Shown here in pieces: positions 36,633-60,671 of a stretch of DNA of 64,000 bases (within the stretch, counting starts at the first letter, position 1; each line of letters opens with the position of its first letter). The position numbers and the translations under genes are program-made. The stretch spans positions 40,941 through 104,940 of the forward strand of contig CAVPRB010000008.1 of NCBI GenBank assembly GCA_963707735.1, given 5' to 3'. The notes under the pieces were generated by a model. It ran no database searches. It saw nothing but the letters and a program-made list of their open reading frames with translations, and had not been told where the DNA came from. The DNA comes from an uncultured Acidobacteriota bacterium (GTDB taxonomy: Bacteria > Acidobacteriota > Terriglobia > Terriglobales > Acidobacteriaceae).

Positions 36633-36634
36633 CG

Positions 36635-47441: not shown

Positions 47442-50183
47442 ATGGAAAAAAGGATTCTCAATGTAAATGGGGTAGACCGCACGCTCATCGTCAACCCGGA
47501 GAAGAATCTGGCGCAGGTATTGCGCGAGCAACTCCTGTTGACGGGCTGCAAGATATGCTGCAGCGAAGGCCAGTGCGGCACCTGTACGGTGATCGTTGAC
47601 GGCGCAGTTACCCGCGCTTGCATGATTCCAATGAACGAAGTGGAAAAGGGTGCCAAGATTTCCACCATTGAAAGCCTGGGAACTCCGGACAACCTGCATC
47701 CTCTGCAGGTAGCCTGGATGGCCAATGGGTCCGCACAGTGCGGCATCTGCACCCCCGGCTTTCTGATGTCCGCAAAAGTCCTGCTTGACACCAATAACAA
47801 TCCAACACGCGAAGATGTGCGGACATGGTTTGAGATAAACAACAACCACTGCCGTTGCACCGGCTACAAGCCGCTGGTGGATTCGGTGATGGACGCAGCC
47901 GCCGTCCTGCGTGGAGAAAAGAAGAAGGAAGACCTGCTGTTTGAACCGGTTGAGAACGGCTCGATCATGGGTTCCAAGTATCGCCGCCCTTCGGCTCTTG
48001 CCAAGGTGACCGGCGCCTGGGACTTCGGCGCCGATGTCGCCCTGCATATGCCGCCGGACACATTGCGTCTGGCTCTGGTGCAGTCCGAGGTTTCCCACGG
48101 CAACATCAAAGGCATTGATTCCTCAGAAGCCGAGAAGATGCCCGGCGTGGTAAAGGTTTTGACCTGGAAGGACGTCAAGGGCAAGAACGCCATCACCGGC
48201 CTCATTACCTTCCCGACAAACAAGGGCGATGGCTGGGATCGTCCGATTCTCTGCAAGGAAAAGGTGTTCCAGTTTGGCGACGCCATCGCAATCGTCTGCG
48301 CCGATACGGAAGATCATGCCCGCGCCGCGGCAGCCGCGGTCAAGGTTGATATTGAAGTCCTTCCGGCTTACATGAGCGCCCCCGCTGCCATGGCTCCGGA
48401 CGCCCTCGAGATTCACCCCGGGGTACCAAACGTTTACTTCGAACAGGGTGTGAGGAAGGGCGAGGATACCGCGCCCTTGATGGAGAAGGCCGCTTACACG
48501 GTAGAAGCTGAGACCTACTGCAGCCGTCAGCCTCACCTCCATCTTGAGCCCGATTGCGGCCTGGCCTATATGGACGAAAGCGGCCGCCTGACCATCCATT
48601 CCAAGAGCATTGGTCTGCACCTGCACCATGCCATGATAGCCCCCGGCCTCGGCATCGAGCCGGAGAAACTCCGTCTCATTGAGAATGGTGTCGGCGCAAC
48701 CTACGGTTATAAGTTCAGTCCGACGATGGAAGCCCTGCTAGGTGTTGCCTGCATGGCGACCAGTCGCCCGGTTTCGCTGGTTTACAACCAGTTCCAGAAC
48801 ATCACCTACACCGGCAAGCGCTCCCCGGTCGAAATGAAAATCAAGCTAGGCGCCGACAAGAACGGCAAACTGACTGCCATGGAGCACACTTGGTGGGTCG
48901 ACCACGGCCCGTATTCTGAATTCGGCGATTTGTTGACCGTCCGTCAGGCACAGTTTACCGGCGCCGGTTACGACATCTCGAATATCCGCGCCCTGGGACA
49001 TACGGTTTGCACCAACCATGCATGGGGCTCGGCGTTCCGCGCCTATGGCTCTCCGCAATCGTTCCTGGCTTCGGAAATCGCCATGGACATGCTGGCCGAG
49101 AAGATGGGGGTGGATCCATTCGAGCTGCGCTACAAGAACATCTATCGCCCGGGCGCAACCACTCCTACCGGTCAGGAACCGGATGTGTTCTGCCTCGAAA
49201 ACCTCTTTAATCTGCTCCGTCCGAAGTATGAAGAGGCCAAGAAGCGCTGCAAGGAACTCTCCACTCCAGAGAAACCTCGTGGCGTCGGTCTGTCGCTGGG
49301 CATCTATGGCTGCGGTCTCGACGGTCCGGATGGAGCGGCAACCGCAATCGAACTGACGCCAAACGGCGTGACTATCTTTGCCACCTGGCAGGACCACGGC
49401 CAGGGCGCTGACCTTGGCGCGCTGACGATTACCCATGAAACCCTGCGTCCGCTTCACCTGCATCCGTCGCAGATCAAGCTGGAATTGAACGACACCCTGC
49501 TACCCAATAGCGGTCCTTCGGGCGGCAGCCGTTCCAACGTCATGATCGGCAATGCCTTGAAGGTTGGCGCTGAGATGCTGATGAATGCCATGCGCAAGCC
49601 TGACGGCACCTATCGCACCTACGACGAAATGGTGGCGGAGAAGATTCCGCTCCGTTACGACGGCAAGTGGGTCGCCGCTGACTGCACTGCCTGCGATGCG
49701 GTTACCGGCCAGGGCAAGCCCTTCCCGATCTACATGTACGAACTGTTTATGCCTGAGGTCGAGGTCAACACCAAGAACGGCAAGGTGAAGGTGGTAAAGT
49801 TCACCACGGCAGTTGACGTGGGCACCATCATCAACCGCGCCACCGTCGAGGGCCAGATCTATGGCGGCATCGCCCAAGGCATTGGACTCGCGCTGACCGA
49901 GGACTTCGAGGACCTGAAGTTCCACACTACCTTGAGGAACTGCGGCCTGCCTTCCATCAAGGACATTCCAGACGACTTCGAGATCCTGTTCCAGGAGACC
50001 CGGCGCCCACTCGGACCCTTCGGGGCCGCGGGCGTCGGCGAAGCGCCTCTAACCGCTCCGCACCCGGCGGTGCTGAACGCGATCCACAACGCGTGCGGCA
50101 TCCGCATTCTGCGGGTACCGGCGCTGCCCAAGGTCGTCAAAGCAGCCCTTGACGCAAAGGAGAAGCAGGCAGTGCACGCTTAA
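47442..50183 (+). CDS. mop: Mop-type aldehyde oxidoreductase (xanthine-oxidase family; 2x[2Fe-2S] plus Moco domains, no FAD domain)
   Basis: 913 aa. The N-terminal cluster motifs are CSEGQCGTCTV, CGICTPGF and CRCTGY. They are followed directly by the molybdopterin-binding domains. This is the same architecture and size class as the Desulfovibrio gigas MOP. Confidence 0.9.
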   Translation: MEKRILNVNGVDRTLIVNPEKNLAQVLREQLLLTGCKICCSEGQCGTCTVIVDGAVTRACMIPMNEVEKGAKISTIESLGTPDNLHPLQVAWMANGSAQCGICTPGFLMSAKVLLDTNNNPTREDVRTWFEINNNHCRCTGYKPLVDSVMDAAAVLRGEKKKEDLLFEPVENGSIMGSKYRRPSALAKVTGAWDFGADVALHMPPDTLRLALVQSEVSHGNIKGIDSSEAEKMPGVVKVLTWKDVKGKNAITGLITFPTNKGDGWDRPILCKEKVFQFGDAIAIVCADTEDHARAAAAAVKVDIEVLPAYMSAPAAMAPDALEIHPGVPNVYFEQGVRKGEDTAPLMEKAAYTVEAETYCSRQPHLHLEPDCGLAYMDESGRLTIHSKSIGLHLHHAMIAPGLGIEPEKLRLIENGVGATYGYKFSPTMEALLGVACMATSRPVSLVYNQFQNITYTGKRSPVEMKIKLGADKNGKLTAMEHTWWVDHGPYSEFGDLLTVRQAQFTGAGYDISNIRALGHTVCTNHAWGSAFRAYGSPQSFLASEIAMDMLAEKMGVDPFELRYKNIYRPGATTPTGQEPDVFCLENLFNLLRPKYEEAKKRCKELSTPEKPRGVGLSLGIYGCGLDGPDGAATAIELTPNGVTIFATWQDHGQGADLGALTITHETLRPLHLHPSQIKLELNDTLLPNSGPSGGSRSNVMIGNALKVGAEMLMNAMRKPDGTYRTYDEMVAEKIPLRYDGKWVAADCTACDAVTGQGKPFPIYMYELFMPEVEVNTKNGKVKVVKFTTAVDVGTIINRATVEGQIYGGIAQGIGLALTEDFEDLKFHTTLRNCGLPSIKDIPDDFEILFQETRRPLGPFGAAGVGEAPLTAPHPAVLNAIHNACGIRILRVPALPKVVKAALDAKEKQAVHA

Positions 50184-50203
50184 CCCTGCGCTCTGTAACG
50201 GCC

Positions 50204-50235
50204 GGCTGAAACGAAATCAAGGTTTCGTTCCAGCC
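50204..50235 (+). promoter_or_regulatory. intercistronic stem-loop after mop
   Basis: GGCTGAAACGAAA-tcaagg-TTTCGTTCCAGCC pairs at 12 of 13 positions. A weak T-rich tail follows. Confidence 0.4.
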
Positions 50236-50315
50236 GTGTCTTAAATGCTTTTACCGCGCAAGCCTGATGACTGGAACAACTGGTCGTGGAGTTGTTCGCA
50301 GAGGAGAGCAGCGTT

Positions 50316-52610
50316 ATGGATCGCGAGCGCGTCAAGCGGTGGGAGGCGCAATGCATCCAGGAGCAGGCGCCAGCCTGCAATGCTGCTTGTCCAGTACACG
50401 TAGATGCCCGGGGACTGCTGGAATGCGTTCGTAAAGGAGATTTCAAGCGCGGACTCAAAATCTTTGCCAACTCCATTTTCTTGCCGCAAATCGTTGCGCG
50501 CATCTGCGATCATCCCTGTCACGGATTCTGTAAACGCGGCGAAGCGGGTGAGCCCCTGAACATTTCGGCGCTGGAACGCGCCTGCGCCGAGTATGGCGGT
50601 ACCGCGCCCGAGGTGCGGCGGCTTTCCGCAAAGCACCAGCGTGTAGCCGTGGTCGGCGGTGGTTTGAGCGGTGTGGTGGTCGCCCTCGATCTCGCAGCCA
50701 AAGGTTACGAGGTTTCGATCCTCGAGGCGTCCGATCAACTGCTTGGCCGGCTCCGCAGGATTGGCGAACATCTGCTGCCGGAAAAGTGCATCGAGACGGA
50801 CCTTGCACTGCTCGAACAGCTTGAAGTCTCGGTGCAATGCAACACGCGGGTATCGCTTGATGGCCCGGCGCCGAATCTCGATTCCCTAACGCAAGACTTT
50901 GACGCTGTTTATCTGGGATGTGGCGACGGTTGGCTATCTGCAGACGGCCATCGCATTGAGATTGATTCCCTGACCTACGCCACAAACAACTCCAAGGTAT
51001 TTGCCGGAGGGACGCTGCGCTATTCGCCCGCGCAGTTCTCGCCGATTACCTCGGTCCAGGACGGCCGCTATGCAGGACTATCGATCGACCGTTTCCTGCA
51101 GGGAGCATCGCTTTCGGCGAGCCGCGAAACGCAAGGGCCGCAGCCTTCCCGTCTCTATACAAACACTTCCGGATTTACTCCGCTGCCGCAGGTACGCGCC
51201 CTGGATCCCCTCGCCGGATATACCCGAGAAGAAGCACAACGGGAGGCCGAGCGGTGCTTCCCCTGTTCCTGCGTGGAGTGCGTGAAAGTCTGCGCGTATC
51301 TGGAGAATTATCGCTCCTATCCGAAGCGTTATGTGCGGGATATCTACAACAATCTCAGCATCGTGATGGGTGTGCGGAACCTGAATCGCATGATCAATTC
51401 CTGTTATCTCTGCGGTTTGTGCGCTGCGGTGTGTCCTGAAAAGCTGAACATGGCGGAGGTGTGCCTGGATGCGCGCCAGAGCATGGTCGCGGACAAGAAA
51501 ATGCCGGCCTCCGCTCATGACTTTGCCTTGCGGGACATGGCGTTCAGCACCGGGGAAGCCTTCGCCATGGCGAGGCATCAGCCGGGTTACGCAACCAGCG
51601 AGGCCGTTTTTTTTCCGGGATGCCAGCTCGCCTCCTCATCGCCTGAGCATGTGCAGTCCTGCTATGAGTTTCTATGCGAGACGCAGGTGGGCGGGGTGGG
51701 GCTGGTCATGAATTGCTGCGGCGCTCCGGCTCTGTGGGCCGGGCGGAATGACATCTTTGAGATGTCGCTGCGTGCGTTGGAGAAGGTATGGGGAGAGATG
51801 GGGAATCCGCGAATCATCACCGCGTGCTCGTCCTGCTATCGTACGCTGAAACAATTCATGCCCCAGTTTCAGGTTGAATCACTTTGGCCGCACCTCAATC
51901 ATGAGAATCTCCCACGGCTCAGCTCCCAGGATTCTGAGCGGGAATTCGCCATTCACGATCCCTGCGCGACCAGAGGCGTGGGTGAAGTAGAAGACGGCGC
52001 TCGCCAACTGCTGCGGCACCTGGGAGTCGAACCAAAAGAACTCAACGAGCGCGGGTTCACGACCTGCTGTGGCTATGGCGGACTGGCCCGTTTTGTGAAT
52101 CCTGATCTGGCGGACAAAACCGTGGCGCGGCGTGCTCAACAGAGCGAATCCGATTATGTGACATACTGCGCCATGTGTCGCGACAGTTTTGCCCGCCAAG
52201 GCAAACGGGCGCTGCATGTTCTGGATTTGATATTCGCGGGCGCTGAGAACGATCCGGCGGCGCGTCCGGATCCTGGTTTTTCGCGGCGTCAGGAAAACAG
52301 GGCTCATCTCAAGACGCGTCTTTTGCGGGAACTCTGGGGAGAAGAGGGAAGGAAATTGGAACCGTCCATAAAATTGCTGATCCCGGAAGAAGTCAGGGCG
52401 TTGCTGGAGCAGCGCATGATTTTGGAGGATGACGTGCGCAGCACGATCGAGCACGCCGAGCAGAGCGGGGAGAAACTCAAGCATCCGGCCACTGGTCACT
52501 GGCTGGCTTGTCATCGCCCCAGTTGTGTTACCTACTGGGTTGAGTACTCGGCGGGGGAATCTGCTTTCCAGGTTCACAACGCGTACTTACACCGGATGCA
52601 GGTGCGCTGA
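50316..52610 (+). CDS. fusion protein: GltD-like Fe-S/FAD-NAD(P) module plus 2x[4Fe-4S] plus two CCG (HdrB/HdrD-like) domains
   Basis: GAGGAG followed by ATG 50316. The N-terminal Cys motifs resemble the glutamate synthase small subunit. VAVVGGGLSG is a Rossmann motif. CFPCSCVECVKVC and CYLCGLCAAVCP are cluster motifs. The CCG-type cysteines occur in FFPGC...NCCG and HDPC...TCCGYGG. Confidence 0.8.
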   Translation: MDRERVKRWEAQCIQEQAPACNAACPVHVDARGLLECVRKGDFKRGLKIFANSIFLPQIVARICDHPCHGFCKRGEAGEPLNISALERACAEYGGTAPEVRRLSAKHQRVAVVGGGLSGVVVALDLAAKGYEVSILEASDQLLGRLRRIGEHLLPEKCIETDLALLEQLEVSVQCNTRVSLDGPAPNLDSLTQDFDAVYLGCGDGWLSADGHRIEIDSLTYATNNSKVFAGGTLRYSPAQFSPITSVQDGRYAGLSIDRFLQGASLSASRETQGPQPSRLYTNTSGFTPLPQVRALDPLAGYTREEAQREAERCFPCSCVECVKVCAYLENYRSYPKRYVRDIYNNLSIVMGVRNLNRMINSCYLCGLCAAVCPEKLNMAEVCLDARQSMVADKKMPASAHDFALRDMAFSTGEAFAMARHQPGYATSEAVFFPGCQLASSSPEHVQSCYEFLCETQVGGVGLVMNCCGAPALWAGRNDIFEMSLRALEKVWGEMGNPRIITACSSCYRTLKQFMPQFQVESLWPHLNHENLPRLSSQDSEREFAIHDPCATRGVGEVEDGARQLLRHLGVEPKELNERGFTTCCGYGGLARFVNPDLADKTVARRAQQSESDYVTYCAMCRDSFARQGKRALHVLDLIFAGAENDPAARPDPGFSRRQENRAHLKTRLLRELWGEEGRKLEPSIKLLIPEEVRALLEQRMILEDDVRSTIEHAEQSGEKLKHPATGHWLACHRPSCVTYWVEYSAGESAFQVHNAYLHRMQVR

Positions 52611-52611
52611 A

Positions 52612-52824
52612 ATGAGTGCGGGAGAGGAATCGCAGGCCGCGGTGCCGCTGATCTGCTGCAAGTGTAATCTGACGCTTGTCAAATCCAAGGTGATAGCCTC
52701 CTATCTGGGCAGCGAATTTCCCATCGAACTCCTAAAGTGTCCGGGGTGCGGCATTGTGCATGTGCCGGAGTCGCTGGCAACGGGCAAGATGATGCAGGTC
52801 GAACAAGCGTTGGAGGACAAATGA
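52612..52824 (+). CDS. small Zn-ribbon protein (CxxC...CxxC)
   Basis: 70 aa, MSAGEES...ICCKCN...KCPGCG. The ATG lies 1 nt after the preceding stop, and the gene's own stop overlaps the next ATG (ATGA). Confidence 0.6.
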   Translation: MSAGEESQAAVPLICCKCNLTLVKSKVIASYLGSEFPIELLKCPGCGIVHVPESLATGKMMQVEQALEDK

Positions 52825-53588
52825 TTCCTGGTGCTGAGTGCGACCTGCGGTACAGGTACGGGCCGGGGAAGGCCCCCGGCTGTGCGGGAGTGCTGGCGCA
52901 TCCAGGCGGATTCGGACTGACCTTGCGTGCGATAGAGCTTGCCCGGTTGAATAAGGGCGCACGTGTTTTGGACCTGGGATGCGGCTCGGGGGAGAGCGTC
53001 CAGCTACTGCGAGCGATCGGCATTGACGCGATCGGATTGGATCACGCGCTCTTGTCTCTCCATCGATCTGCAGCGGAGAACGGCTCATGCGTCGAAGCCT
53101 CCGCCGAGGAACTACCCTTTGCGGATTCGTCCATGGATGGAGTACTCGCGGAGTGCAGTCTTTCGGAGATGTGGAAGCCGCAAAGGGTGCTGGCAGAGTG
53201 CGCCCGTGTTCTCTGTCCCGGTGGCCGGTTGATGATTTCAGACATTTACGCGCGCAATTCCAATTCCCAGGCGATCAGGGCCATCCGGAGCCTCCAGGGA
53301 ACATGCGCATCAGCGATGTTTGTGCGCGAGGAACTGGAGAGTTGGCTGCACGAAGCGGGCTTCGCGCCGCAGTGTTTTGAGGATCATTCGTGCGCTCTTC
53401 GCGAGTTCGTCGCGCGCTTCATCTTTGATCACGGTTCGATAGAGCCGCTATGGGAGGAGGAAGCGCACGCATCGAATGCGCAGGCAATTGCTGCCGCTAT
53501 GAAGCAGGCGAGAGCGGGTTATTTTCTCCAGATTTCCACTTATGTGGAGGGAAGGGTGAAGGAAAATGGGAACCGCGATGCGAGATGA
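52821..53588 (+). CDS. class I SAM-dependent methyltransferase
   Basis: Motif I VLDLGCGSGE and motif post-I/II (DGVLAECSL...LCPGGRLMISD). Confidence 0.8.
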   Translation: MIPGAECDLRYRYGPGKAPGCAGVLAHPGGFGLTLRAIELARLNKGARVLDLGCGSGESVQLLRAIGIDAIGLDHALLSLHRSAAENGSCVEASAEELPFADSSMDGVLAECSLSEMWKPQRVLAECARVLCPGGRLMISDIYARNSNSQAIRAIRSLQGTCASAMFVREELESWLHEAGFAPQCFEDHSCALREFVARFIFDHGSIEPLWEEEAHASNAQAIAAAMKQARAGYFLQISTYVEGRVKENGNRDAR

Positions 53589-54028
53589 CGAGTTTGGAAT
53601 CATGGAACTTGCCATGCGCGGATTCAACTGCAGCCAGATACTTGTTTTGATGGCCCTGGAGGCACAGGGCCGGGAGTGTCCGGATCTGGTGCGCGCCATG
53701 ACCGGCCTGCTCTCCGGCCTCGGCTGCGGAAAACTCTGCGGAGCTCTTACCGGGGGATGCTGCGTGCTGGGAATGTATGCCGGCAAGGATTCCGTCGAAA
53801 ACAACGCGGATCACCCGATTGCAGACCATGCTCGCGAATTTTGTAGAGTGGTTCGAATCGGAATACACGACTCGATACGGCGGCATCAACTGCGCGGAGA
53901 TTGTGCAGGACGACGCGCGCCTGAGAATGACGCGCTGCCAATCGATCGTCATGGAAAGCCTGGAAAAACTCAGGGAAATTCTTGCGGATCATGATTATGA
54001 GTTCAGCCAGCAGCCACATTCCGTCTAG
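53566..54028 (+). pseudogene. C-GCAxxG-C-C family protein, one frame change
   Basis: GFNCSQ...GCGKLCGALTGGCCVLG is in ORF 53566. The conserved C-terminus LQTMLANFVEWFESEYTTRYGGINCAEIV...RCQSIV is in ORF 53777..54028. The shift lies near 53818. Confidence 0.7.
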
Positions 54029-55173: not shown

Positions 55174-56616
55174 ATGGCGGTGCAAACAATGAGCGGGGCT
55201 GTCAGAAAGTTGGGAGTAACGGAAAGCGTTTGCCCGCACTGCTTGCGCCGCATCGATGCCGAACGAATTGCCGAAGGAGACGACGTTTTTCTTCGTAAGA
55301 ACTGTCCTGAACATGGGCCGTTCCAGACTATTCTCTGGCGCGGGTTGGAATCCTACAGCGCCTGGGCAGACAAGAGGATGGTGCCGTCTCGTCCACCTTC
55401 CTGCTCAGCTGGCACGTCGCGCGGATGTCCGTTCGACTGCGGCCTCTGTTCCGAACACCGTCAGCACACCTGTTGCGTGGTCCTGGAGGTGACTCAACGC
55501 TGCAATCTGAATTGCCCGGTTTGCTTTGCTGACGCAAAATCGGATGGCAGAATTGATCCCAGTCTCAAGGAAATCCAGGTTTGGTGCCAGACCCTGTTAA
55601 GCAACGGTGGTCCGTATAATATTCAGCTCTCCGGTGGAGAACCGGCCTTGCGTGACGATCTTCCGGAGATCGTCCAGATGATACGGGCATGCGGCTTCAG
55701 TTTCGTGCAACTGAATACCAACGGCGTTCGACTCGCCCAGGACCGTGACTACGCGAGGCGGTTGAAGGATGCGGGACTTGGCTGCGTCTTTCTGCAGTTC
55801 GACGGCGTTTCCGAGGCGGTCCACCGTAAGATTCGCAGCCTCGACCTCCGCCAAGTCAAGGATGCTGCGATTCGCATCTGTACTGATTATGAATTGGGAG
55901 TTGTGCTGGTGCCCACGCTTGTGCCCGGCGTCAACACCGCACAGATTGGCGACATGATCCGGTTTGCCATCGCCAACGCGCCCACCGTCCGTGCGATTCA
56001 CTTTCAGCCCGTCAGCTACTTTGGCCGCTACCCGTCACTGCCTCAAGATTCTGATCGCATCACGCTACCGGAGGTGATGCAGAGGATCGAGGAACAGACC
56101 GCCGGCCTCTTTTGCGCGAAGGATTTCTACCCTGCTTCGGGCGAGAACGCTTTTTGCGAATTTCACGGGAAATTCTGGTTGCGTCCTGATGGCCGGGTTG
56201 AGCCCGCGGTGCGGCCCGTAGTTTCGTGTTGTGCACCGCCCCGCGATGAACGCCTGGTGCAACTCGGAGCCGAACCAGATGGAAACGGCGAAGCAGCGCG
56301 GCGGGCGCGCAAGTTTGTTGCGCAGCACTGGGCGCTTCCGCCGCTGAAGCCTGTGTCCGTCCCCGAGGCGGGAATCGATGTCAGCAGCCTTGATGCATTC
56401 CTCGCCCAGAATAGGCATTCTTTCTGCATCTCCGGCATGGCTTTTCAGGATGCATGGAATCTCGATCTCACCCGCTTGAAAGAGTGTTTTCTGCATGTCC
56501 TCTCTCCGGACCGGAAAATGGTTCCGCTCTGCGCCTACAATCTCACCGGCATCGACGGTCGCGCGCTCTATCGAACATTCGGTATCGCGCAGGCTGAGGC
56601 CGGAGGCGTGGCATGA
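55174..56616 (+). CDS. radical SAM protein with N-terminal Zn-ribbon and large C-terminal domain
   Basis: CPHCLRR...CPEHG ribbon, GCPFDCGLCSEH, the radical SAM triad CNLNCPVC, and LSGGEP. 480 aa. Confidence 0.85.
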   Translation: MAVQTMSGAVRKLGVTESVCPHCLRRIDAERIAEGDDVFLRKNCPEHGPFQTILWRGLESYSAWADKRMVPSRPPSCSAGTSRGCPFDCGLCSEHRQHTCCVVLEVTQRCNLNCPVCFADAKSDGRIDPSLKEIQVWCQTLLSNGGPYNIQLSGGEPALRDDLPEIVQMIRACGFSFVQLNTNGVRLAQDRDYARRLKDAGLGCVFLQFDGVSEAVHRKIRSLDLRQVKDAAIRICTDYELGVVLVPTLVPGVNTAQIGDMIRFAIANAPTVRAIHFQPVSYFGRYPSLPQDSDRITLPEVMQRIEEQTAGLFCAKDFYPASGENAFCEFHGKFWLRPDGRVEPAVRPVVSCCAPPRDERLVQLGAEPDGNGEAARRARKFVAQHWALPPLKPVSVPEAGIDVSSLDAFLAQNRHSFCISGMAFQDAWNLDLTRLKECFLHVLSPDRKMVPLCAYNLTGIDGRALYRTFGIAQAEAGGVA

Positions 56617-57959
56617 ATACCTCTCTTGCCGCGATTCGGAAAACGCCTTTGGAGAATTGGATTGCGCATCGCATCGATGTCGCTCCTGGGACGCTTACGC
56701 CAAGCGACCTATCGCGATACCAGGTGGCAAAGCTGCGCCAGACTCTGGGCTGGGTACGAGAACGCAGTTCATTCTACTCGCGTCATCTTAGCGGCTTCGA
56801 TGAATCTTCGCTGCGGTCGATGGAGGACGTGCGCCGGATTCCATTTACTACCGCGGCGGACCTTTCCCGGCATGCATCGCGTTTCCTTTGCGTTTCGCAG
56901 GACGAGATTCAACGGGTTGTGACTCTGGCGAGCAGCGGCACCAGCGGAGAGCCGAAGCGCCTTTTCTTCACTGCATCAGACCAGGAGTCCGCGCTCGACT
57001 TCTTCGAACACGGCGTATCGACCCTGGCGGAGCGCGGAGACACGATGTTGATCGCCCTTCCCGGCGAACGACATGGAAGCGTGGGCAATTTGCTTGCCAA
57101 GGGAATCGAACGATCCGGTGTGAGGCCGGTCGCGTATGGGCTGATCTCGAATCCCGCGGATGTTTTAGAGACGATGGCGCGCGAGTGCGCAACCAGCATC
57201 ATCGGGTTCCCGGTGCAGTTGTTATGTCTCGCAAATCAGCGCGGTCGGCTTGCAGACCGGGTCTTTTCTAAGCTGCGCAGCATTGTGTTGTGCAGCGATC
57301 ACGTTCCATCGGCCGCCGTCCGGACATTGCAACAGCGCGCCGGGTGCGAAGTGTTTGAACATTATGGCATGACCGAGATGGGATTAGGCGGCGGGGTGGA
57401 TTGCCAAGCCCACGCCGGTTATCACCTGCGAGAGGCTGACCTCCTGTTCGAGATTGTAGATGTTCGAAGCGGAGAGCCAATGCCCGACGGAGAGATGGGA
57501 GAGGTCGTGTTTTCGACTCTTACGCGCCAAGGAATGCCGCTGATCCGATACCGGACCGGCGACATCTCTGGTTTTTCCGCGGAACGGTGTCCATGCGGTA
57601 CCATGCTGAAGACTTTGCAACGTATTCGCGAACGGTCCGATGGCAGAATTTCTCTTGGCCCTTGTGGCGAAATCAACATGGCCGTTCTAGATGATGCCTT
57701 GTTCGAGGTTCCAGGCCTGGTTGATTTTGCCGCCATTCTGACTCGTGCCACGACGGCAGAACTTCGGATTGTGTGCCAACTTCTGTACACCGAGGAACAG
57801 TCTGCAATTCATTCCGCAGTCGAGCGGTTAGAACAGAACGTAATTGCAATTGAGCGCGGGCGGCGGAGTGGAGAATTGCGGTTGCGAGTCGAGGTGGCAT
57901 CCAAACCGTTCGTGTTCAACGGCGCGAAAAGAAGGATCGAGGTGCGCGGAGAGCAATGA
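56613..57959 (+). CDS. PaaK/F390-synthetase-family adenylate-forming ligase
   Basis: SSGTSGEPKR AMP-binding motif, YGMTE, and a length of about 448 aa typical of phenylacetate-CoA-ligase-like enzymes. Confidence 0.85.
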   Translation: MNTSLAAIRKTPLENWIAHRIDVAPGTLTPSDLSRYQVAKLRQTLGWVRERSSFYSRHLSGFDESSLRSMEDVRRIPFTTAADLSRHASRFLCVSQDEIQRVVTLASSGTSGEPKRLFFTASDQESALDFFEHGVSTLAERGDTMLIALPGERHGSVGNLLAKGIERSGVRPVAYGLISNPADVLETMARECATSIIGFPVQLLCLANQRGRLADRVFSKLRSIVLCSDHVPSAAVRTLQQRAGCEVFEHYGMTEMGLGGGVDCQAHAGYHLREADLLFEIVDVRSGEPMPDGEMGEVVFSTLTRQGMPLIRYRTGDISGFSAERCPCGTMLKTLQRIRERSDGRISLGPCGEINMAVLDDALFEVPGLVDFAAILTRATTAELRIVCQLLYTEEQSAIHSAVERLEQNVIAIERGRRSGELRLRVEVASKPFVFNGAKRRIEVRGEQ

Positions 57960-58615
57960 ACCCAAGCAAGCTCTATCTCGTGCGGCACGGTGAGATCATC
58001 TCTGTGAGTGGCAAGAGGTACATCGGGCAACTGGAGGCGCCGCTGAGCGAACGCGGAGTGGAGCAGGCCTGGGCCCTCCGCAACTGGCTGGAGCCGATCG
58101 AATTTTCCCGAATCCTATGCAGCGATCTCACCCGTTCCGAACGAACGGCAAAGATCATCACCGGCCAACGGGAAGTCCCCATTCAGGTGCGGTCTGAACT
58201 GCGCGAAGTCAACCTTGGCGATTGGGAGGGCGTCAGCTTTCGCGAGATCGCGACCCGCTTTCCCGCAGATTTCGAAGCCCGGGGAAGAGATTTGGAACAC
58301 TGGCGCCCTCCGGGAGGAGAGAGTTTTGCCGACTGCTGGAATCGTATCTCTCCAGTTCTGGATAAGGTCCTATCCAACCCAGGGGGAAACATTCTTATTG
58401 TCGGCCACGCGGGCGTTAATCGGTTAATTCTGTGTGCCGCGCTCGGAATCCCGACAGCCAACCTGATGAGCCTGGGTCAAGATTACGGCTGTCTGAACAT
58501 CATCGAGTACAACGATCAGCGCTGCCGCCTGCAGCTGCTGAACTATGCACCGTTGGTAACCGGGATGGCCATGCAGGCTACGCAAGTCAATTCCCAGCGC
58601 AGGGCGAGCAGATGA
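57956..58615 (+). CDS. histidine phosphatase family protein (CobC/PGM-like)
   Basis: LVRHGE (the RHG motif), SDLTRS, and a downstream GHAG motif. Confidence 0.85.
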   Translation: MNPSKLYLVRHGEIISVSGKRYIGQLEAPLSERGVEQAWALRNWLEPIEFSRILCSDLTRSERTAKIITGQREVPIQVRSELREVNLGDWEGVSFREIATRFPADFEARGRDLEHWRPPGGESFADCWNRISPVLDKVLSNPGGNILIVGHAGVNRLILCAALGIPTANLMSLGQDYGCLNIIEYNDQRCRLQLLNYAPLVTGMAMQATQVNSQRRASR

Positions 58616-58628
58616 GAGGTAGGACGCG

Positions 58629-59804
58629 ATGGCAATCGTATACTTAGACAACAACGGCACGACTCCCTTGCTACCGGAAGTACTGGAAGCGATGATGCCC
58701 TACTTCCGGGAGGAATTCGGGAATCCCTCCTCCATTCATGCGTGCGGCCGGCGTGCGCTCGCTGCTCTGAAGCATGCGCGCACCTCCGTGGCAAGTATGC
58801 TGGGGTCCCGGGCAACAGAGATTATCTTTACCAGCGGCGGGACAGAAGGCGATAATCTTGCGCTCCTCGGAATGGTTGCCCCGGGAGACCACGTCATTAC
58901 CTCCGTCATTGAACACAGCGCGATCCTGCAGACCTGCCTCTACCTCGAGCACATCGGCTGCCAGGTTACGCGGATTGGAGTGAGTTCCGACGGGCGGATC
59001 GACCCTGATGATGTGCGCAAAGCATTGCGGCCGAATACAAAGCTCATCTCAGTCATGATGGCAAATAACGAGACTGGGGTGCTGCAACCGGTCCAGGAGA
59101 TCGGAGACCTCGCCAAGGAGGCCGATGTGTGGTTCCACACCGATGCCGTGCAGGCCGCGGGCAAGGTCGCCATCGACGTCGCTCGGCTCGGCTGCGATCT
59201 GCTGACGATCACTGCGCACAAGATCCATGGCCCGCAGGGAACCGGTGCTCTGTTCGTGCGCCGAGGAACCCCGCTGCGTCCGCAGATTCACGGTGGTCAT
59301 CAGGAGAACGGGCGGCGCCCCGGCACCGAAAATATTCCCGGAATCGTTGGCCTCGGCCGCGCCTGCGAGATTGCGCGGCGTGGATTGAGTGATGGCTCAA
59401 TGGCACGGATTGGTTCATGGCGCGACAAATTGGAAGCAGCGGCGCTGGAGCAAATTTCAGGGACCGGCGTGAATGGCGCGAACGCCCCGCGGGTTTCGAA
59501 TACGTCCAACATTTACTTCGATCATGTGGGAGGTGACGCACTGGTCCTGGCGCTCGACGAACTCGGGATCGCTGTCTCGCGCGGAGCAGCCTGCAATGCG
59601 GGCGAGGCCGAACCCTCCAGCATTCTCATGGCGATGGGGCTCAGCGGCGAGCGTTCGCGGTCCAGCTTGCGCTTTAGCATCGGGAAGGCAGACTCGGAAC
59701 CAGACATCGACTATCTGATCTCCGTCTTGCCCGGCGCCGTACGGCGGCTGCGTGAAGCATCGCCATTCTTCTCAACTTCGCAATCGGTCATAACCCACGG
59801 ATGA
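58629..59804 (+). CDS. nifS: cysteine desulfurase (NifS/IscS class)
   Basis: SGGTEGDN, the PLP lysine in ITAHKIHGPQG, and the active-site Cys in SRGAACNAG. Confidence 0.9.
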   Translation: MAIVYLDNNGTTPLLPEVLEAMMPYFREEFGNPSSIHACGRRALAALKHARTSVASMLGSRATEIIFTSGGTEGDNLALLGMVAPGDHVITSVIEHSAILQTCLYLEHIGCQVTRIGVSSDGRIDPDDVRKALRPNTKLISVMMANNETGVLQPVQEIGDLAKEADVWFHTDAVQAAGKVAIDVARLGCDLLTITAHKIHGPQGTGALFVRRGTPLRPQIHGGHQENGRRPGTENIPGIVGLGRACEIARRGLSDGSMARIGSWRDKLEAAALEQISGTGVNGANAPRVSNTSNIYFDHVGGDALVLALDELGIAVSRGAACNAGEAEPSSILMAMGLSGERSRSSLRFSIGKADSEPDIDYLISVLPGAVRRLREASPFFSTSQSVITHG

Positions 59805-59840
59805 TATGAGTTCTGCGGCCCGCATGGATGGGAGAAGACA

Positions 59841-60671
59841 ATGGATATCTATAGCGAAATCTGCAACCTGAAACGTCAGGGAAGACGCTCTGCCTTGGCC
59901 ACCATTGTGAATGCCAGGGGTTCCATCCCATCGGTTACGGCAGCAAAGATGCTGGTCCGCGATGACGGTTCGATCCTTGGTACCATCGGTGGCGGTTGTG
60001 TTGAGAACGATATCCGCAATGGGGCGATGGAAGTGATGAAAGACGAGAAGCCGAGGACGTTCAACTTCAATCTCGACCAGCATCCAGACGATGATACCGG
60101 CTTGGTCTGCGGCGGTGCGCTTCAAGTTTTCGTCGAGCCAGTTATTCCACCCCCATTGCTGTACGTCTTCGGCGCCGGTCACGTGGGCTTCAATATCTAC
60201 AAGGTTGCGCAGATCGCCGGTTTTGAGGTTGTCGTCGTCGATGATCGGGACACCTTCGCAAATCGTGAGCGATTTCCAGACGCGCTTGATGTTCATGCAG
60301 GCGACATGGACCTGATGATGTCGCAACTCGCCCCCCCGGACAGCTCTTTTATCGCAATTGTTACCCGGGGCCACCGCCATGACATGCGCGTCCTGCGCTG
60401 GGCGGTAGATACCATGGCACGTTACATCGGCATGATCGGTTCGGGGCGCAAAGTGCTTACCGTCTTCGGAGAGCTGGAGAAACAGGGCGTCTCACGCGAA
60501 AAATTAATGCAGGTATATGCTCCCATCGGCCTGCAAATAGGTTCGGTGACACCGGAGGAGATTGCCGTGTCCGTGGTAGCGGAGTTGATTGCCATCCGCC
60601 GCCACTGCGAAATTCCAATGCCGCATTCGCGCAATCGAATTCGCGACGACGAGCCGGCCACAACCAAGTAG
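59841..60671 (+). CDS. xdhC: XdhC-family molybdenum cofactor insertion chaperone (short form)
   Basis: TIGGGCVE and LVCGGALQVFVEP in the N-domain; LYVFGAGHVG and VTRGHRHD in the Rossmann domain. Confidence 0.85.
   Translation: MDIYSEICNLKRQGRRSALATIVNARGSIPSVTAAKMLVRDDGSILGTIGGGCVENDIRNGAMEVMKDEKPRTFNFNLDQHPDDDTGLVCGGALQVFVEPVIPPPLLYVFGAGHVGFNIYKVAQIAGFEVVVVDDRDTFANRERFPDALDVHAGDMDLMMSQLAPPDSSFIAIVTRGHRHDMRVLRWAVDTMARYIGMIGSGRKVLTVFGELEKQGVSREKLMQVYAPIGLQIGSVTPEEIAVSVVAELIAIRRHCEIPMPHSRNRIRDDEPATTK

What the first reader, a model, noticed from the sequence alone, without database searches (positions are those of the whole stretch)
47442..60671. Mop-type aldehyde oxidoreductase operon carries a co-linear accessory gene set of mostly unassigned function
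**Gene order (tightly packed, several ATGA or 4-nt overlaps)**
1. 913-aa Mop-type molybdoenzyme.
2. GltD-HdrCB-like fusion.
3. 70-aa Zn-ribbon protein.
4. SAM methyltransferase.
5. C-GCAxxG-C-C protein.
6. MocA-like NTP transferase fused to an HD domain.
7. Radical SAM enzyme.
8. PaaK/F390-synthetase-like adenylating ligase.
9. Histidine phosphatase.
10. NifS.
11. XdhC.

**What known Moco biology explains.** The MocA-like part fits cytidylylation to the MCD cofactor used by Mop-type enzymes. NifS plus XdhC fits sulfuration and insertion, as described for Rhodobacter XDH maturation.

**What it does not explain.** The radical SAM enzyme, adenylating ligase, methyltransferase, phosphatase, C-GCAxxG-C-C protein and Zn-ribbon protein are unaccounted for. 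Together they look like a small-molecule or cofactor tailoring pathway (activate, C-modify, methylate, dephosphorylate).

**Possible precedent.** I recall NCBI protein-family names of the form DVU_1551 / 1553 / 1555 / 1556 / 1557. They refer to a conserved neighbourhood next to the Desulfovibrio vulgaris aldehyde oxidoreductase, for which I know no assigned function. That recollection is unverified here. Finding the same set in a high-GC, aerobic-looking lineage would extend an uncharacterised system.
Basis: partly seen in the sequence, partly recalled or inferred. Interest (0 to 1): 0.85.

Follow-up and report, generated by a model that had tools for sequence, protein, structure and literature searches.

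The report
Aldehyde oxidoreductase operon with helper genes
The gene set is real and conserved, but it is an already catalogued, still uncharacterised companion cluster of the classic molybdenum aldehyde oxidoreductase; here it also sits back-to-back with a membrane hydrogenase operon, so aldehyde oxidation may drive hydrogen production.

Summary
All 11 genes are present at 47442-60671. Eight proteins, Mop included, pass curated NCBIfam models for this neighbourhood: pterin_aldehy, diclust_near_Sec, DVU_1557, DVU_1556, DVU_1551, TrsS, DVU_1553, and DVU_1555 once a frameshift is allowed for.

The set travels with Mop across at least six phyla. Of 45 fully flanked loci, 39 have Mop; all 35 with TrsS also have Mop; 29 carry all ten genes. 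It is also present in D. gigas, whose enzyme was crystallised with ordinary MCD. NCBI already applies these names to Acidobacteria, so this is a new member of a known, functionally unassigned kind.

What this analysis adds:
- The histidine phosphatase is a core member, and gene fusions tie it, the ligase and TrsS to the MocA-HD enzyme.
- The Zn-ribbon protein is a detachable domain of the Fe-S/flavin protein.
- NifS is lineage-specific.
- The operon is half of a sigma-54 divergon. The other half holds a group-4 [NiFe]-hydrogenase, ferredoxin, MoaA and MoeA.

Best model: Mop plus redox partners plus a dedicated cofactor line. The chemistry of TrsS, the ligase and the methyltransferase remains unknown.

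The parts
33373..34527 (-). Long-form XdhC, the 'XdhC family aldehyde oxidoreductase maturation factor'
   Evidence: NF045664 scores 401.9 bits against a cut-off of 350, over the full profile. It is the last gene of the divergent operon.
35120..36457 (-). MoeA molybdopterin molybdotransferase
   Evidence: Pfam MoeA_N, MoCF_biosynth and MoeA_C; NCBIfam MoeA/Glp about 360 bits. MoeA-type genes recur in 14 related loci and beside D. gigas mop.
36635..37741 (-). MoaA GTP 3',8-cyclase
   Evidence: TIGR02666 scores 297.6 against 284. The same position is kept in L093 and L094.
37998..38303 (-). 2x[4Fe-4S] ferredoxin
   Evidence: Ferredoxin models hit. It follows the hydrogenase large subunit in L091, L093 and L094. 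Ferredoxin genes also lie upstream of XdhC-Mop in 6 proteobacterial loci.
38321..39403 (-). Group-4 [NiFe]-hydrogenase large subunit
   Evidence: Pfam NiFeSe_Hases and Complex1_49kDa. Both Ni-Fe binding motifs are present, RVCGICSNIH and DPCYSCTDR.
39400..39807 (-). NuoC-like hydrogenase subunit
   Evidence: Weak NuoJ/30 kDa match. Complex1_30kDa is recorded for the identical gene in L091.
39804..40463 (-). Fe-S subunit (HycF/NuoI-like). The true start is probably near 40229.
   Evidence: Matches the formate hydrogenlyase Fe-S subunit and NuoI models. Gene calls of 133-141 aa in L091, L093 and L094.
40226..41140 (-). NuoH-like membrane subunit
   Evidence: Pfam NADHdh; NuoH models.
41137..41619 (-). 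NuoB-like hydrogenase small subunit
   Evidence: NF005012 scores 119.9 against 116.
41604..44633 (-). NuoL/MrpA-like antiporter subunit (about 1000 aa)
   Evidence: Mrp subunit A and NuoL models at 340-360 bits. The first gene of the divergent operon.
44646..44661 (-). Candidate sigma-54 promoter for the hydrogenase operon, TGGCCTctggtTTGCA
   Evidence: One of only two relaxed -24/-12 matches in 64 kb, and it points into the operon. It is identical in the same-organism assembly L091 and near-identical in the distinct genome L094, but was not found in L093.
44637..46811 (+). Sigma-54 enhancer-binding protein (GAF-PAS-AAA+-HTH_8, AcoR/MimR type). The true start is probably near 44805.
   Evidence: Pfam; NCBIfam DhaR/PrdR-like. 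MimR_N is recorded for orthologues.
47105..47120 (+). Sigma-54 promoter TGGCACtttgaTTGCA, 322 nt upstream of mop
   Evidence: The only strict match in 64 kb (expected 0.06). Conserved between the EBP gene and mop in L002, L093, L094 and L091.
47442..50183 (+). Mop-type molybdopterin (MCD) aldehyde oxidoreductase
   Evidence: NF045668 scores 1567 against 1100. It is 60% identical to D. gigas AOR over the full length, with all 8 [2Fe-2S] Cys and Glu869 conserved.
50286..52610 (+). NfnB/GltD-like 2x[4Fe-4S]/flavin module fused to an HdrC-like dicluster and two HdrB-like CCG domains
   Evidence: NF045663 scores 992 against 530. Pfam Fer4_20, Pyr_redox_2, Fer4_17 and CCG x2. PDB NfnA/NfnI-type modules. 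It always follows Mop (39 of 39).
52612..52824 (+). DVU_1557 / DUF7479 four-Cys Zn-ribbon protein
   Evidence: NF045645 scores 90 against 60. C15, C18, C43 and C46 are invariant. It is fused to the C-terminus of the preceding protein in three genomes.
52821..53588 (+). DVU_1556 family SAM methyltransferase
   Evidence: NF045667 scores 218 against 155. E111-C112 is invariant in 47 of 47 sequences.
53566..54028 (+). DVU_1555 family C-GCAxxG-C-C protein, interrupted by a +1 frameshift at the C-run 53814-53816
   Evidence: The two profile halves lie in two frames. Deleting one C restores a gap-free alignment. The same indel is in Logan contig L084, and two other contigs break exactly at 53814.
53982..55154 (+). 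DVU_1551 family MocA-like NTP transferase fused to an HD phosphohydrolase
   Evidence: NF045665 scores 417 against 315. The HD motif residues are invariant. It has 702 representative clusters at E<1e-30.
55174..56616 (+). TrsS radical SAM enzyme (Cys form)
   Evidence: NF045646 scores 625 against 490. GDGT-MAS 7tol scores 293 bits. It has a rubredoxin-like CxxC-x20-CxxH motif, an N-terminal CxxxCxxC motif, the radical SAM CxxxCxxC motif and C-terminal Cys.
56613..57959 (+). DVU_1553 family PaaK-like adenylating ligase
   Evidence: NF045666 scores 451 against 300. PaaK 4r1l scores 120 bits. C264, C326-P-C328 and K439 are invariant.
57956..58615 (+). CobC-like histidine phosphatase
   Evidence: TIGR03162 scores 172 against 163. 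The catalytic residues R10, H11, R60, E84 and H151 are conserved. Present in 37 of 45 loci and fused to NTP-HD.
58629..59804 (+). NifS-like class-V cysteine desulfurase (an Acidobacterial addition)
   Evidence: TIGR03402 scores 477 against 531. Homologues of 67-80% identity occur only in Acidobacterial loci.
59841..60671 (+). Short-form XdhC paralogue
   Evidence: NF045664 scores 284 against 350; Pfam XdhC_CoxI and XdhC_C. It is paired with NifS in the Acidobacterial loci L001, L002, L003, L004, L006 and L007.

Best explanation
**What it is.** This is the Acidobacterial copy of the conserved Mop aldehyde-oxidoreductase neighbourhood. NCBIfam encodes that neighbourhood as pterin_aldehy, diclust_near_Sec, DVU_1557, DVU_1556, DVU_1555, DVU_1551, TrsS, DVU_1553 and XdhC_rel_AOR.

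**Layer 1, catalysis.** Mop oxidises an aldehyde to the acid at Mo-MCD and passes two electrons through its two [2Fe-2S] clusters. The homology is shown; the activity is inferred.

**Layer 2, electron transfer.**
- The NfnB/HdrCB-like protein and its detachable Zn-ribbon domain are Mop's dedicated redox partner or reactivating reductase. The C-GCAxxG-C-C protein probably belongs with them.
- In this lineage a ferredoxin and a group-4 energy-converting [NiFe]-hydrogenase are encoded in the divergent operon. Both operons sit under sigma-54 promoters flanking one AcoR/MimR-type activator.
- They could therefore turn the low-potential aldehyde electrons into H2 with ion translocation, as an FHL- or CODH-Ech-like unit. 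This is inferred from synteny.

**Layer 3, cofactor supply.** MoaA, MoeA, MocA-HD with the CobC-like phosphatase, two XdhC proteins and NifS make, cytidylylate and insert the cofactor. This is inferred from homology and context.

**Layer 4, unknown step.** TrsS, the DVU_1553 ligase and the DVU_1556 methyltransferase carry out an unknown step on the same cofactor line. Gene fusions support the link. The reaction itself is unknown.
For: **Identity.** HMM scores pass the curated cut-offs.

**Co-occurrence.**
- 45 fully flanked loci, anchored on NTP1551, span Acidobacteriota, Thermodesulfobacteriota, Bacillota, Alpha- and Betaproteobacteria, Spirochaetota and Bacteroidota.
- Mop, the Fe-S/flavin protein, DVU_1557 and XdhC occur together in 39. 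TrsS is in 35, always with Mop. All ten genes are in 29.
- Four Mop-anchored look-ups all show the set, D. gigas among them.

**Link to the cofactor line.**
- Fusions: NTP-HD+TrsS (861 aa), NTP-HD+His phosphatase, NTP-HD+ModE domain, and ligase+NTP+HD+His phosphatase (1083 aa).
- Recurrent neighbours: MoeA in 14 loci and ModA/B-like transport genes in 5.
- The NTP-HD and phosphatase pair also sits beside another XDH-family enzyme.

**Redox layer.**
- The Fe-S/flavin protein is fused to DUF7479.
- Its N-terminus resembles NfnB modules.
- The four-gene set is co-upregulated on syngas/H2 in C. ljungdahlii.
- D. gigas AOR activity depends on the dithiolene redox state.

**Hydrogenase link.**
- The Ni-Fe motifs are intact and the six-subunit set is complete.
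- The same divergon occurs in two further Acidobacterial genomes.
- A hydrogenase large subunit lies directly upstream of XdhC-Mop in five alphaproteobacterial species.
- The passing XdhC_rel_AOR sits in the hydrogenase operon.
- The sigma-54 promoters are at 47105 and 44661.
- An aldehyde-to-H2 chain was reconstituted in vitro for D. gigas.
Against: - No protein of the accessory set has been characterised. All functional steps are inferences.
- D. gigas carries TrsS, the ligase, the methyltransferase and C-GCAxxG-C-C next to mop. Yet its native enzyme is described with ordinary pyranopterin cytosine dinucleotide and no modification (1.28 A structure from own knowledge). A stable tailoring of Mop's cofactor is therefore unlikely.
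- Three Syntrophobacteraceae loci carry the methyltransferase, TrsS, NTP-HD and the phosphatase, and two of them also C-GCAxxG-C-C and the ligase, with no Mop within about 6 kb.
- TrsS and/or the methyltransferase are missing in some Mop loci: L019, L030, L041 and L042.
- The hydrogenase adjacency is absent from most lineages. It is also absent from two Acidobacterial genomes with 77-79% identical large subunits.
- The second sigma-54 site is only a relaxed match; chance gives 2 or more matches in 22% of shuffles.
- Sampling was anchored mainly on NTP1551.
Confidence: 0.55

Rival explanations
1. The six genes for the methyltransferase, C-GCAxxG-C-C, TrsS, the ligase, NTP-HD and the phosphatase build a separate nucleotide-linked small molecule or thiol cofactor. 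That product would not be Mop's MCD. It would serve as cosubstrate or prosthetic group of the HdrB-like Fe-S/flavin protein.
For: - The module stands alone in Syntrophobacteraceae loci: all six genes in L027 and L050, four in L049.
- The mix of enzyme types resembles cofactor pathways: nucleotidyl transfer, adenylation, radical C-C or C-S chemistry, methylation and dephosphorylation. The Hcg route to FeGP is one example (own knowledge).
- HdrB-type CCG domains act on small-molecule disulfides in Hdr (own knowledge).
- D. gigas Mop itself shows unmodified MCD.
Against: - The NTP-HD and phosphatase pair also serves other XDH-family enzymes that lack the Fe-S/flavin protein.
- The best general match of the NTP domain is MocA.
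- There is a ModE fusion, and the neighbours are XdhC, MoeA and ModAB.
- No candidate product is known.
Confidence: 0.2
2. The ligase and its partners form a catabolic route around Mop's substrate or product. One example would be acid activation to a CoA thioester after aldehyde oxidation, or a PaaK-type aromatic pathway. On this reading they are not maturation factors.
For: - The ligase is PaaK-like, with invariant adenylation residues including K439.
- NCBIfam calls it an 'AMP-dependent CoA ligase'.
- Mop makes carboxylic acids.
- The activator is of the AcoR/MimR type.
Against: - The PaaK models score 110-130 bits against cut-offs of 646-700.
- No paa, beta-oxidation or thiolase genes lie in the clusters.
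- The ligase is fused to NTP-HD and the phosphatase.
- An invariant Cys triad is not found in PaaK.
- The set is kept across organisms with very different carbon metabolism.
Confidence: 0.12
3. The accessory proteins are an in vivo repair or reactivation system. It would re-reduce or resulfurate the oxidised dithiolene or Mo site of Mop rather than act in primary assembly.
For: - D. gigas AOR switches between inactive and active forms with the dithiolene redox state, and is reactivated by dithionite plus sulfide.
- The cluster is rich in thiol and Fe-S redox proteins: HdrB-like CCG domains, DVU_1557 and C-GCAxxG-C-C.
- NifS is added in Acidobacteria.
- It is compatible with an unmodified final cofactor.
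Against: - It gives no direct role for a methyltransferase, an adenylating ligase or an NTP transferase.
- It overlaps the best explanation and cannot be separated from it by sequence alone.
Confidence: 0.15
4. TrsS is simply a bacterial tetraether or membrane-spanning lipid synthase (Tes/GDGT-MAS type) of an acidobacterium, placed next to Mop by chance.
For: - The second-best family is Tes at 372 bits, and GDGT-MAS scores 293 bits in the PDB.
- Acidobacteria make branched GDGTs (own knowledge).
Against: - The Tes score is below its cut-off of 450, while TrsS passes at 625 against 490.
- GDGT-MAS residues 333-443 do not align.
- TrsS sits with Mop in 35 of 35 loci across phyla.
- TrsS is fused to NTP-HD.
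Confidence: 0.02

Closest known systems
NCBIfam Mop-AOR neighbourhood families (NF045663-NF045669, NF045645, NF045646), named after D. vulgaris DVU_1551-1557. TrsS comes from Haft & Tolstoy 2025, mSystems 10:e0141724.
   Same: - The same families pass the curated cut-offs.
- The same co-linear block lies next to a Mop-type enzyme.
   Different: - The gene order differs: NTP-HD sits between C-GCAxxG-C-C and TrsS.
- A NifS and short-XdhC pair is added.
- The long XdhC has moved to a divergent hydrogenase/Moco operon.
- C-GCAxxG-C-C is frameshifted.
- TrsS is the Cys form.
- The source paper could not be read, so its functional proposal is unknown to me.
Desulfovibrio (Megalodesulfovibrio) gigas aldehyde oxidoreductase MOP/AOR (PDB 1VLB, 1SIJ)
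   Same: - 60% identity over the full length.
- The same domains, cluster ligands and catalytic Glu.
- The D. gigas locus carries the same accessory genes.
   Different: - D. gigas has no NTP-HD in cis, and adds nitroreductase and HEAT genes.
- It has no adjacent hydrogenase.
- Its electron chain to H2 was reconstituted with soluble flavodoxin, cytochrome c3 and hydrogenase.
MCD assembly and insertion for xanthine-oxidase-family enzymes: E. coli MocA, and Rhodobacter XdhC with NifS4 (own knowledge; review PMC2997495 listed)
   Same: - A MobA-like NTP transferase domain.
- An XdhC chaperone.
- A class-V desulfurase.
   Different: - The NTP transferase is fused to an active HD domain and paired or fused with a CobC-like phosphatase.
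- The MocA model is below its cut-off (121 against 186).
- NifS is lineage-specific.
- D. gigas AOR does not need the sulfido ligand.
GDGT-MAS / Tes (MJ0619) tetraether lipid synthase
   Same: - The rubredoxin-like motif, the N-terminal auxiliary cluster motif, the radical SAM motif and the C-terminal cluster region are all kept.
- Radical H-abstraction with possible C-S(cluster) chemistry is therefore plausible.
   Different: - It fails the Tes model.
- The middle region (GDGT-MAS residues 333-443) is not aligned.
- The genomic context is a molybdoenzyme, not lipid synthesis.
Formate hydrogenlyase and CODH-Ech (Coo): a soluble low-potential oxidoreductase coupled to a group-4 membrane [NiFe]-hydrogenase
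   Same: - A six-subunit group-4 hydrogenase with an Mrp/NuoL-like subunit and a ferredoxin lies next to the oxidoreductase genes.
- The donor couple is very low-potential. The acid/aldehyde couple is about -580 mV (own knowledge).
   Different: - The donor module would be a Mop-type Mo-MCD enzyme.
- The coupling is inferred from synteny only, in three Acidobacterial and five alphaproteobacterial genomes.
- The hydrogenase subgroup was not classified.
C. ljungdahlii tandem four-gene sets (Aklujkar et al. 2017, PMC5640608)
   Same: AOR, an FAD/CCG fusion protein, a four-Cys protein and C_GCAxxG_C_C, recognised as a unit and upregulated on syngas/H2-CO2.
   Different: That paper did not treat the ligase, XdhC, NTP-HD and phosphatase genes that follow (L042). 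C. ljungdahlii lacks TrsS and the methyltransferase.

Membership tests
NCBIfam Mop-AOR neighbourhood (DVU_155x/TrsS set) | Mop passes NF045668 pterin_aldehy (cut-off 1100) | tested here: met
   1567.5 bits, profile 2-904 of 905.
NCBIfam Mop-AOR neighbourhood (DVU_155x/TrsS set) | NF045663 (530), NF045645 (60), NF045667 (155), NF045665 (315), NF045646 (490) and NF045666 (300) are all passed | tested here: met
   Scores are 992.4, 90.4, 217.7, 416.8, 624.6 and 451.1 bits.
NCBIfam Mop-AOR neighbourhood (DVU_155x/TrsS set) | DVU_1555 C-GCAxxG-C-C protein passes NF045669 (cut-off 103) | tested here: inconclusive
   101.2 bits for the N-terminal part and 56.5 bits for the C-terminal part in another frame. 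The gene is split by a 1-nt insertion.
NCBIfam Mop-AOR neighbourhood (DVU_155x/TrsS set) | XdhC_rel_AOR NF045664 (cut-off 350) | tested here: met
   Met by 33373-34527 (401.9 bits). Not met by the in-operon XdhC at 59841-60671 (284.4 bits).
NCBIfam Mop-AOR neighbourhood (DVU_155x/TrsS set) | Co-linear occurrence with Mop in other genomes | tested here: met
   29 of 45 loci have all ten genes. TrsS occurs with Mop in 35 of 35. Four of four Mop-anchored loci carry the set.
Xanthine oxidase family, D. gigas Mop subtype | A single chain with two [2Fe-2S] domains and Mo-MCD domains, no FAD domain, and the catalytic Glu | tested here: met
   Full-length match to 1SIJ/1VLB at 1245 bits. Cys 40, 45, 48, 60, 100, 103, 137 and 139 and Glu869 are conserved.
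Tes / GDGT-MAS tetraether lipid synthase | NF045702 cut-off of 450 and an alignable lipid-binding middle region | tested here: not met
   371.7 bits. GDGT-MAS residues 333-443 are not aligned.
PaaK phenylacetate-CoA ligase | TIGR02155 (646) or NF041878 (700) | tested here: not met
   109.8 and 130.3 bits.
MocA molybdenum cofactor cytidylyltransferase | TIGR03310 cut-off of 186.45 | tested here: not met
   120.7 bits on residues 24-208. The homology is at domain level only. CTP specificity cannot be tested here.
CobC alpha-ribazole phosphatase | TIGR03162 cut-off of 162.9, and a cobamide-synthesis context | tested here: inconclusive
   171.9 bits passes. But no cob genes are nearby, and the gene is fused or paired with NTP-HD beside molybdoenzymes.
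NifS cysteine desulfurase | TIGR03402 cut-off of 530.75 | tested here: not met
   477.5 bits. Membership of class-V aminotransferases is clear.
Selenium-dependent molybdenum hydroxylase | TIGR03311 cut-off of 830; Sec codons or selD/yqeB/yqeC nearby | tested here: not met
   439.3 bits. No in-frame TGA aligns to Cys in TrsS or C-GCAxxG-C-C in the 80 loci. selD, yqeB and yqeC were not searched genome-wide.
Group-4 energy-converting [NiFe]-hydrogenase | The L1 (RxCGxCxxxH) and L2 (DPCxxCxxH/R) motifs, with NuoB-, NuoC-, NuoH-, NuoI- and NuoL-like partners | tested here: met
   The motifs are seen and the subunits. Subgroup (4e, 4f or 4g) was not tested.

The most novel reading that the evidence does not exclude
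TrsS is a GDGT-MAS-like radical SAM enzyme that is a selenoprotein in some lineages. With the Cys-triad ligase, the DVU_1556 methyltransferase, MocA-HD and the CobC-like phosphatase it would form a previously undescribed assembly line. The product would be a new derivative or transient intermediate of the pyranopterin dinucleotide, or a new nucleotide-linked cofactor. The Mop/HdrB-like redox system would need that product.

In Acidobacteria and Alphaproteobacteria the same system would feed a group-4 hydrogenase, forming an 'aldehyde hydrogenlyase'.
Probability: 0.2. Interest if true: 0.85.

Novelty: new member of a known kind. Interest (0 to 1): 0.55.

Why it matters
D. gigas AOR has been a model molybdoenzyme for 40 years. 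Its physiological substrate, its true electron acceptor and its in vivo activation are still open questions. The 2023 historical review never mentions an operon.

A ten-gene companion set conserved across at least six phyla includes a radical SAM enzyme, an adenylating ligase and a methyltransferase, tied by fusions to the MCD-forming enzyme. This marks an unrecognised step in molybdoenzyme biogenesis or function. It could be tested in genetically tractable D. vulgaris.

The hydrogenase link would add an aldehyde-driven member to the formate- and CO-driven hydrogen-evolving respiratory complexes. That is relevant to fermentation and H2 cycling in peat and soil Acidobacteria.

Tried and rejected
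- **Pterin C-methylase reading of TrsS.** The Pfam name 'Zn_ribbon_HMPTM' suggested it. Rejected: MJ0619/HMPTM_METJA is GDGT-MAS, and the pterin methylase claim was not corroborated.
- **ArsM-like three-Cys metalloid site in the methyltransferase.** Only C112 is invariant. C162 is kept in 26 of 47 sequences and C21 in 2 of 47. Kept as a weak lead only.
- **Selenoprotein forms.** No in-frame TGA aligns to Cys in TrsS or C-GCAxxG-C-C in the 80 loci.
- **Moco riboswitch or other known RNA in the 322-nt leader or elsewhere in 44000-64000.** None found.
- **A general sigma-54 promoter upstream of mop in all lineages.** Not found within 600 nt in 28 loci. It appears only where an EBP gene is adjacent.
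- **Hydrogenase adjacency as a general Acidobacterial feature.** Two loci with 77-79% identical large subunits lack the Mop cluster.
- **First profile for the genome scan.** It was too diverse, so a 12-sequence alignment was used.
- **Haft & Tolstoy 2025.** The paper could not be retrieved.
- **Literature on DVU_1551-1557.** Searches found nothing.
- **Structure prediction.** Not run. Single-sequence models and a missing coordinate output would not have answered the substrate question.

Full report
**1. Observation**

NCBIfam and Pfam scans give these identities:

| Gene | Family | Score / cut-off |
|---|---|---|
| Mop | NF045668 | 1567 / 1100 |
| Fe-S/flavin fusion | NF045663 'diclust_near_Sec' | 992 / 530 |
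| 70-aa protein | NF045645 DVU_1557 family, DUF7479 | 90 / 60 |
| Methyltransferase | NF045667 | 218 / 155 |
| C-GCAxxG-C-C | NF045669 | 101.2 / 103 |
| MocA+HD | NF045665 | 417 / 315 |
| Radical SAM | NF045646 TrsS | 625 / 490 |
| Ligase | NF045666 | 451 / 300 |
| His phosphatase | TIGR03162 CobC-like | 172 / 163 |
| NifS-like | TIGR03402 | 477 / 531 |
| XdhC | NF045664 | 284 / 350 |

Mop is 60% identical to D. gigas AOR over its whole length. All eight [2Fe-2S] cysteines, Glu869 and the active-site residues are conserved.

**2. Two corrections to the anatomy**

*The C-GCAxxG-C-C gene is frameshifted.*
- Profile positions 2-88 are read in one frame and 76-140 in the next.
- The break is at the C-run 53814-53816. 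Deleting one C gives '...NNADHRLQTML...', which aligns without gaps to homologues.
- An independent Logan contig carries the same indel. Two others begin exactly at 53814.
- Another assembly of the same organism is riddled with split genes. A systematic homopolymer error is therefore as likely as a real allele.

*The XdhC that passes the AOR-specific model is elsewhere.* It is not the one in the operon. It is a long-form gene at 33373-34527 on the opposite strand (402 / 350).

**3. Conservation**

The MocA-HD family has 702 representative clusters at E<1e-30. A profile scan of one genome per species found more than 522 relatives, and I kept 80 loci.

tblastn of all window proteins against them covers 45 loci with full 10-kb flanks:
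- Mop, the Fe-S/flavin protein, DVU_1557 and XdhC occur together in 39.
- The ligase is in 37 and the His phosphatase in 37.
- C-GCAxxG-C-C is in 36, the methyltransferase in 35 and TrsS in 35.
- All 35 TrsS loci also have Mop, and 29 loci carry all ten genes.

The taxa include Acidobacteriota, Syntrophobacteraceae, Desulfobacterales, Maridesulfovibrio, Geobacter, Sporomusa, Desulfotomaculum, C. ljungdahlii, Rhodoplanes, Cohaesibacter, Propionivibrio, Spirochaetota and a Pedobacter MAG.

Four look-ups anchored on Mop all show the set: D. gigas, Desulfobacter hydrogenophilus, an Acidobacteriota MAG and Nitratidesulfovibrio termitidis.

NCBI already names Terracidiphilus MAG proteins 'DVU_1551 family NTP transferase'. 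TrsS is credited to Haft & Tolstoy 2025. The window is thus a new member of a catalogued neighbourhood, not an extension into unknown territory.

**4. Modular structure**

*(a) Redox unit: the Fe-S/flavin protein with DVU_1557.*
- DVU_1557 always follows the Fe-S/flavin protein, and in three genomes it is fused to its C-terminus.
- The N-terminus of that protein resembles NfnB/GltD 2x[4Fe-4S]/flavin modules. The rest is an HdrC-like dicluster and two HdrB-like CCG domains.
- Aklujkar et al. saw AOR, this fusion protein, the four-Cys protein and C_GCAxxG_C_C as tandem four-gene sets in C. ljungdahlii, upregulated on syngas/H2.

*(b) MocA-HD with the His phosphatase.*
- The phosphatase directly follows NTP-HD in most loci and is fused to it in P0131 and L027.
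- The pair also follows a three-subunit 4-hydroxybenzoyl-CoA-reductase-like enzyme in a Pelotomaculum MAG, with none of the other genes present.
- The catalytic residues of the HD domain and of the phosphatase are invariant.

*(c) TrsS, the ligase and the methyltransferase, together with C-GCAxxG-C-C.*
- These genes can be missing while Mop stays (L019, L030, L041, L042).
- With NTP-HD and the phosphatase they can stand alone without Mop nearby, in three Syntrophobacteraceae loci: all six genes in L027 and L050, four in L049.

*Fusions tie these pieces together.*
- NTP-HD+TrsS, 861 aa with both models passed.
- Ligase+NTP+HD+phosphatase, 1083 aa.
- NTP-HD+ModE domain.

*Recurrent extra neighbours.* MoeA occurs in 14 loci and beside D. 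gigas mop. ModA/B-like transport genes, ferredoxin and, in Sporomusa, a class-V aminotransferase also recur. NifS at 67-80% identity is confined to Acidobacterial loci.

**5. What TrsS and the ligase look like**

*TrsS.*
- Its closest solved relative is GDGT-MAS (293 bits).
- It keeps the rubredoxin-like C-x2-C-x20-C-x2-H motif, the N-terminal auxiliary C-x3-C-x2-C motif, the radical SAM motif and the C-terminal cluster cysteines. It has additional invariant Cys100, Cys328 and Cys353.
- GDGT-MAS is MJ0619/HMPTM_METJA. Its old pterin-methylase annotation was not corroborated, and it couples inert carbons through a C-S(cluster) intermediate. The Pfam name 'HMPTM' is therefore no evidence for pterin chemistry.
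- TrsS fails the Tes model (372 / 450).

*The ligase.*
- It is PaaK-like (120 bits to 4r1l) but far below the PaaK cut-offs.
- It has an invariant Cys264 and Cys326-Pro-Cys328, besides the adenylation lysine.

**6. A constraint from D. gigas**

The organism whose native AOR gave the crystal structures has the Fe-S/flavin protein, DUF7479, the methyltransferase, C-GCAxxG-C-C, TrsS, the ligase, XdhC and the phosphatase directly downstream of mop.
- The enzyme is described with ordinary pyranopterin cytosine dinucleotide and Mo bound by two dithiolene sulfurs and three oxygens.
- Its active form carries oxo rather than sulfido, and its activity depends on the dithiolene redox state.
- A stable, visible tailoring of Mop or its cofactor is therefore unlikely. 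Insertion, a transient intermediate, reactivation, or a product used by the Fe-S/flavin protein all remain possible.
- The Rhodobacter-type 'NifS+XdhC sulfuration' reading is weak for the family.

**7. Surroundings: a divergon with a hydrogenase**

Head-to-head with the activator gene lies a - strand operon running from 44633 down to 33373. In order, it encodes:
- a NuoL/MrpA-like antiporter subunit;
- NuoB-like, NuoH-like, HycF/NuoI-like and NuoC-like subunits;
- a [NiFe]-hydrogenase large subunit with intact RVCGICSNIH and DPCYSCTDR motifs;
- a ferredoxin, MoaA, MoeA and the long XdhC_rel_AOR.

*Regulation.*
- The activator is GAF-PAS-AAA+-HTH_8 of the AcoR/MimR type.
- A perfect -24/-12 element, TGGCACtttgaTTGCA, sits at 47105-47120. 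It is the only strict match in 64 kb (expected 0.06).
- That element is conserved in L002, L093 and L094, and in L091, a second assembly of the same organism.
- A relaxed element, TGGCCTctggtTTGCA, sits at 44661-44646 and points into the hydrogenase operon. It is also present in L094 and in the same-organism assembly L091.
- These are the only two relaxed matches in the window. That count alone is not significant.

*Recurrence.*
- The same divergon occurs in two further Acidobacterial genomes, with large subunits 91% and 87% identical.
- It is absent from two genomes with 77-79% identical large subunits.
- In five alphaproteobacterial species (Cohaesibacter, Rhodoplanes, Consotaella and two MAGs) a motif-intact group-4 large subunit lies directly upstream of XdhC-Mop on the same strand.

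*Interpretation.*
- The acid/aldehyde couple is far more negative than H+/H2 (own knowledge).
- An aldehyde-to-H2 chain was reconstituted in vitro with D. gigas proteins.
- An FHL- or CODH-Ech-like 'aldehyde hydrogenlyase' is therefore a reasonable inference for these lineages, but an untested one.
- I found no paper using such terms.

**8. Verdict**

The system is a known, curated, functionally unassigned neighbourhood, and this locus is a new member with lineage-specific additions.

The best model has four layers: catalysis, redox partners (including a hydrogenase here), cofactor supply, and an unknown TrsS/ligase/methyltransferase step tied to the cofactor line. I hold it at about 0.55.

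The rivals are a separate cofactor or cosubstrate (0.2), repair or reactivation (0.15), a catabolic side pathway (0.12) and lipid synthesis (0.02).

**9. Limits**
- Sampling was anchored mostly on NTP-HD.
- No experiment exists for any accessory protein.
- The key paper could not be read.
- The hydrogenase subgroup was not classified.

Noticed in passing
window 33373-44633 (- strand): A divergent operon encodes a six-subunit group-4 [NiFe]-hydrogenase with intact Ni-Fe motifs, a ferredoxin, MoaA, MoeA and the long-form XdhC_rel_AOR. It lies head-to-head with the sigma-54 activator of the Mop operon. The same layout occurs in L093 and L094. A hydrogenase large subunit lies upstream of XdhC-Mop in five alphaproteobacterial loci.
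   Followed up: partly
window 53814-53816: A one-base insertion in a C-run splits the C-GCAxxG-C-C gene. The same indel is in Logan contig L084. Contigs L083 and L085 both start exactly at 53814. Another assembly of the organism (L091) has many split genes, so an artefact is plausible.
   Followed up: partly
window 47105-47120 (+) and 44646-44661 (-): These are the only two sigma-54-type -24/-12 matches in the window. They flank the activator gene and point outwards into the two operons. The mop-side site is conserved in L002, L093 and L094, and in L091, a second assembly of the same organism.
   Followed up: partly
L050:8474-11725; L027:9977-11755; P0130; P0131; P0235: Rosetta-stone fusions occur in other genomes: ligase+NTP transferase+HD+His phosphatase (1083 aa), NTP-HD+phosphatase, NTP-HD+TrsS (861 aa) and NTP-HD+ModE N-terminal domain.
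   Followed up: partly
L027, L049, L050 (Syntrophobacteraceae MAGs): The methyltransferase, TrsS, NTP-HD and the phosphatase, plus C-GCAxxG-C-C and the ligase in L027 and L050, occur with no Mop, Fe-S/flavin protein or XdhC within the locus. They lie next to a two-component sigma-54 regulator. Whether Mop is elsewhere in these genomes is unknown.
   Followed up: no
L007:3514-9470 (Acidobacteriaceae MAG): HdrB-like, HdrA-like, MvhD-like and sulfhydrogenase beta/gamma-like genes lie directly upstream of NTP-HD, the phosphatase, NifS and XdhC, with no Mop in the locus.
   Followed up: no
window 61005-61556 (-) and 61603-61623 (+): An unannotated 183-aa ORF has an N-terminus (YIYRNEQGVPYYVGEG) that looks GIY-YIG-like, but it has no Pfam or NCBIfam hit. 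It overlaps a 170-aa + strand ORF. A strong hairpin with a T-run follows at 61603. GC content drops to 54% beyond 60 kb.
   Followed up: no
L081 (D. gigas CP006585.1) 12800-13414 and 21244-21861: The D. gigas version of the cluster has a nitroreductase gene inserted between mop and the Fe-S/flavin gene, and a HEAT-repeat gene at the end. It has no NTP-HD gene in cis.
   Followed up: no
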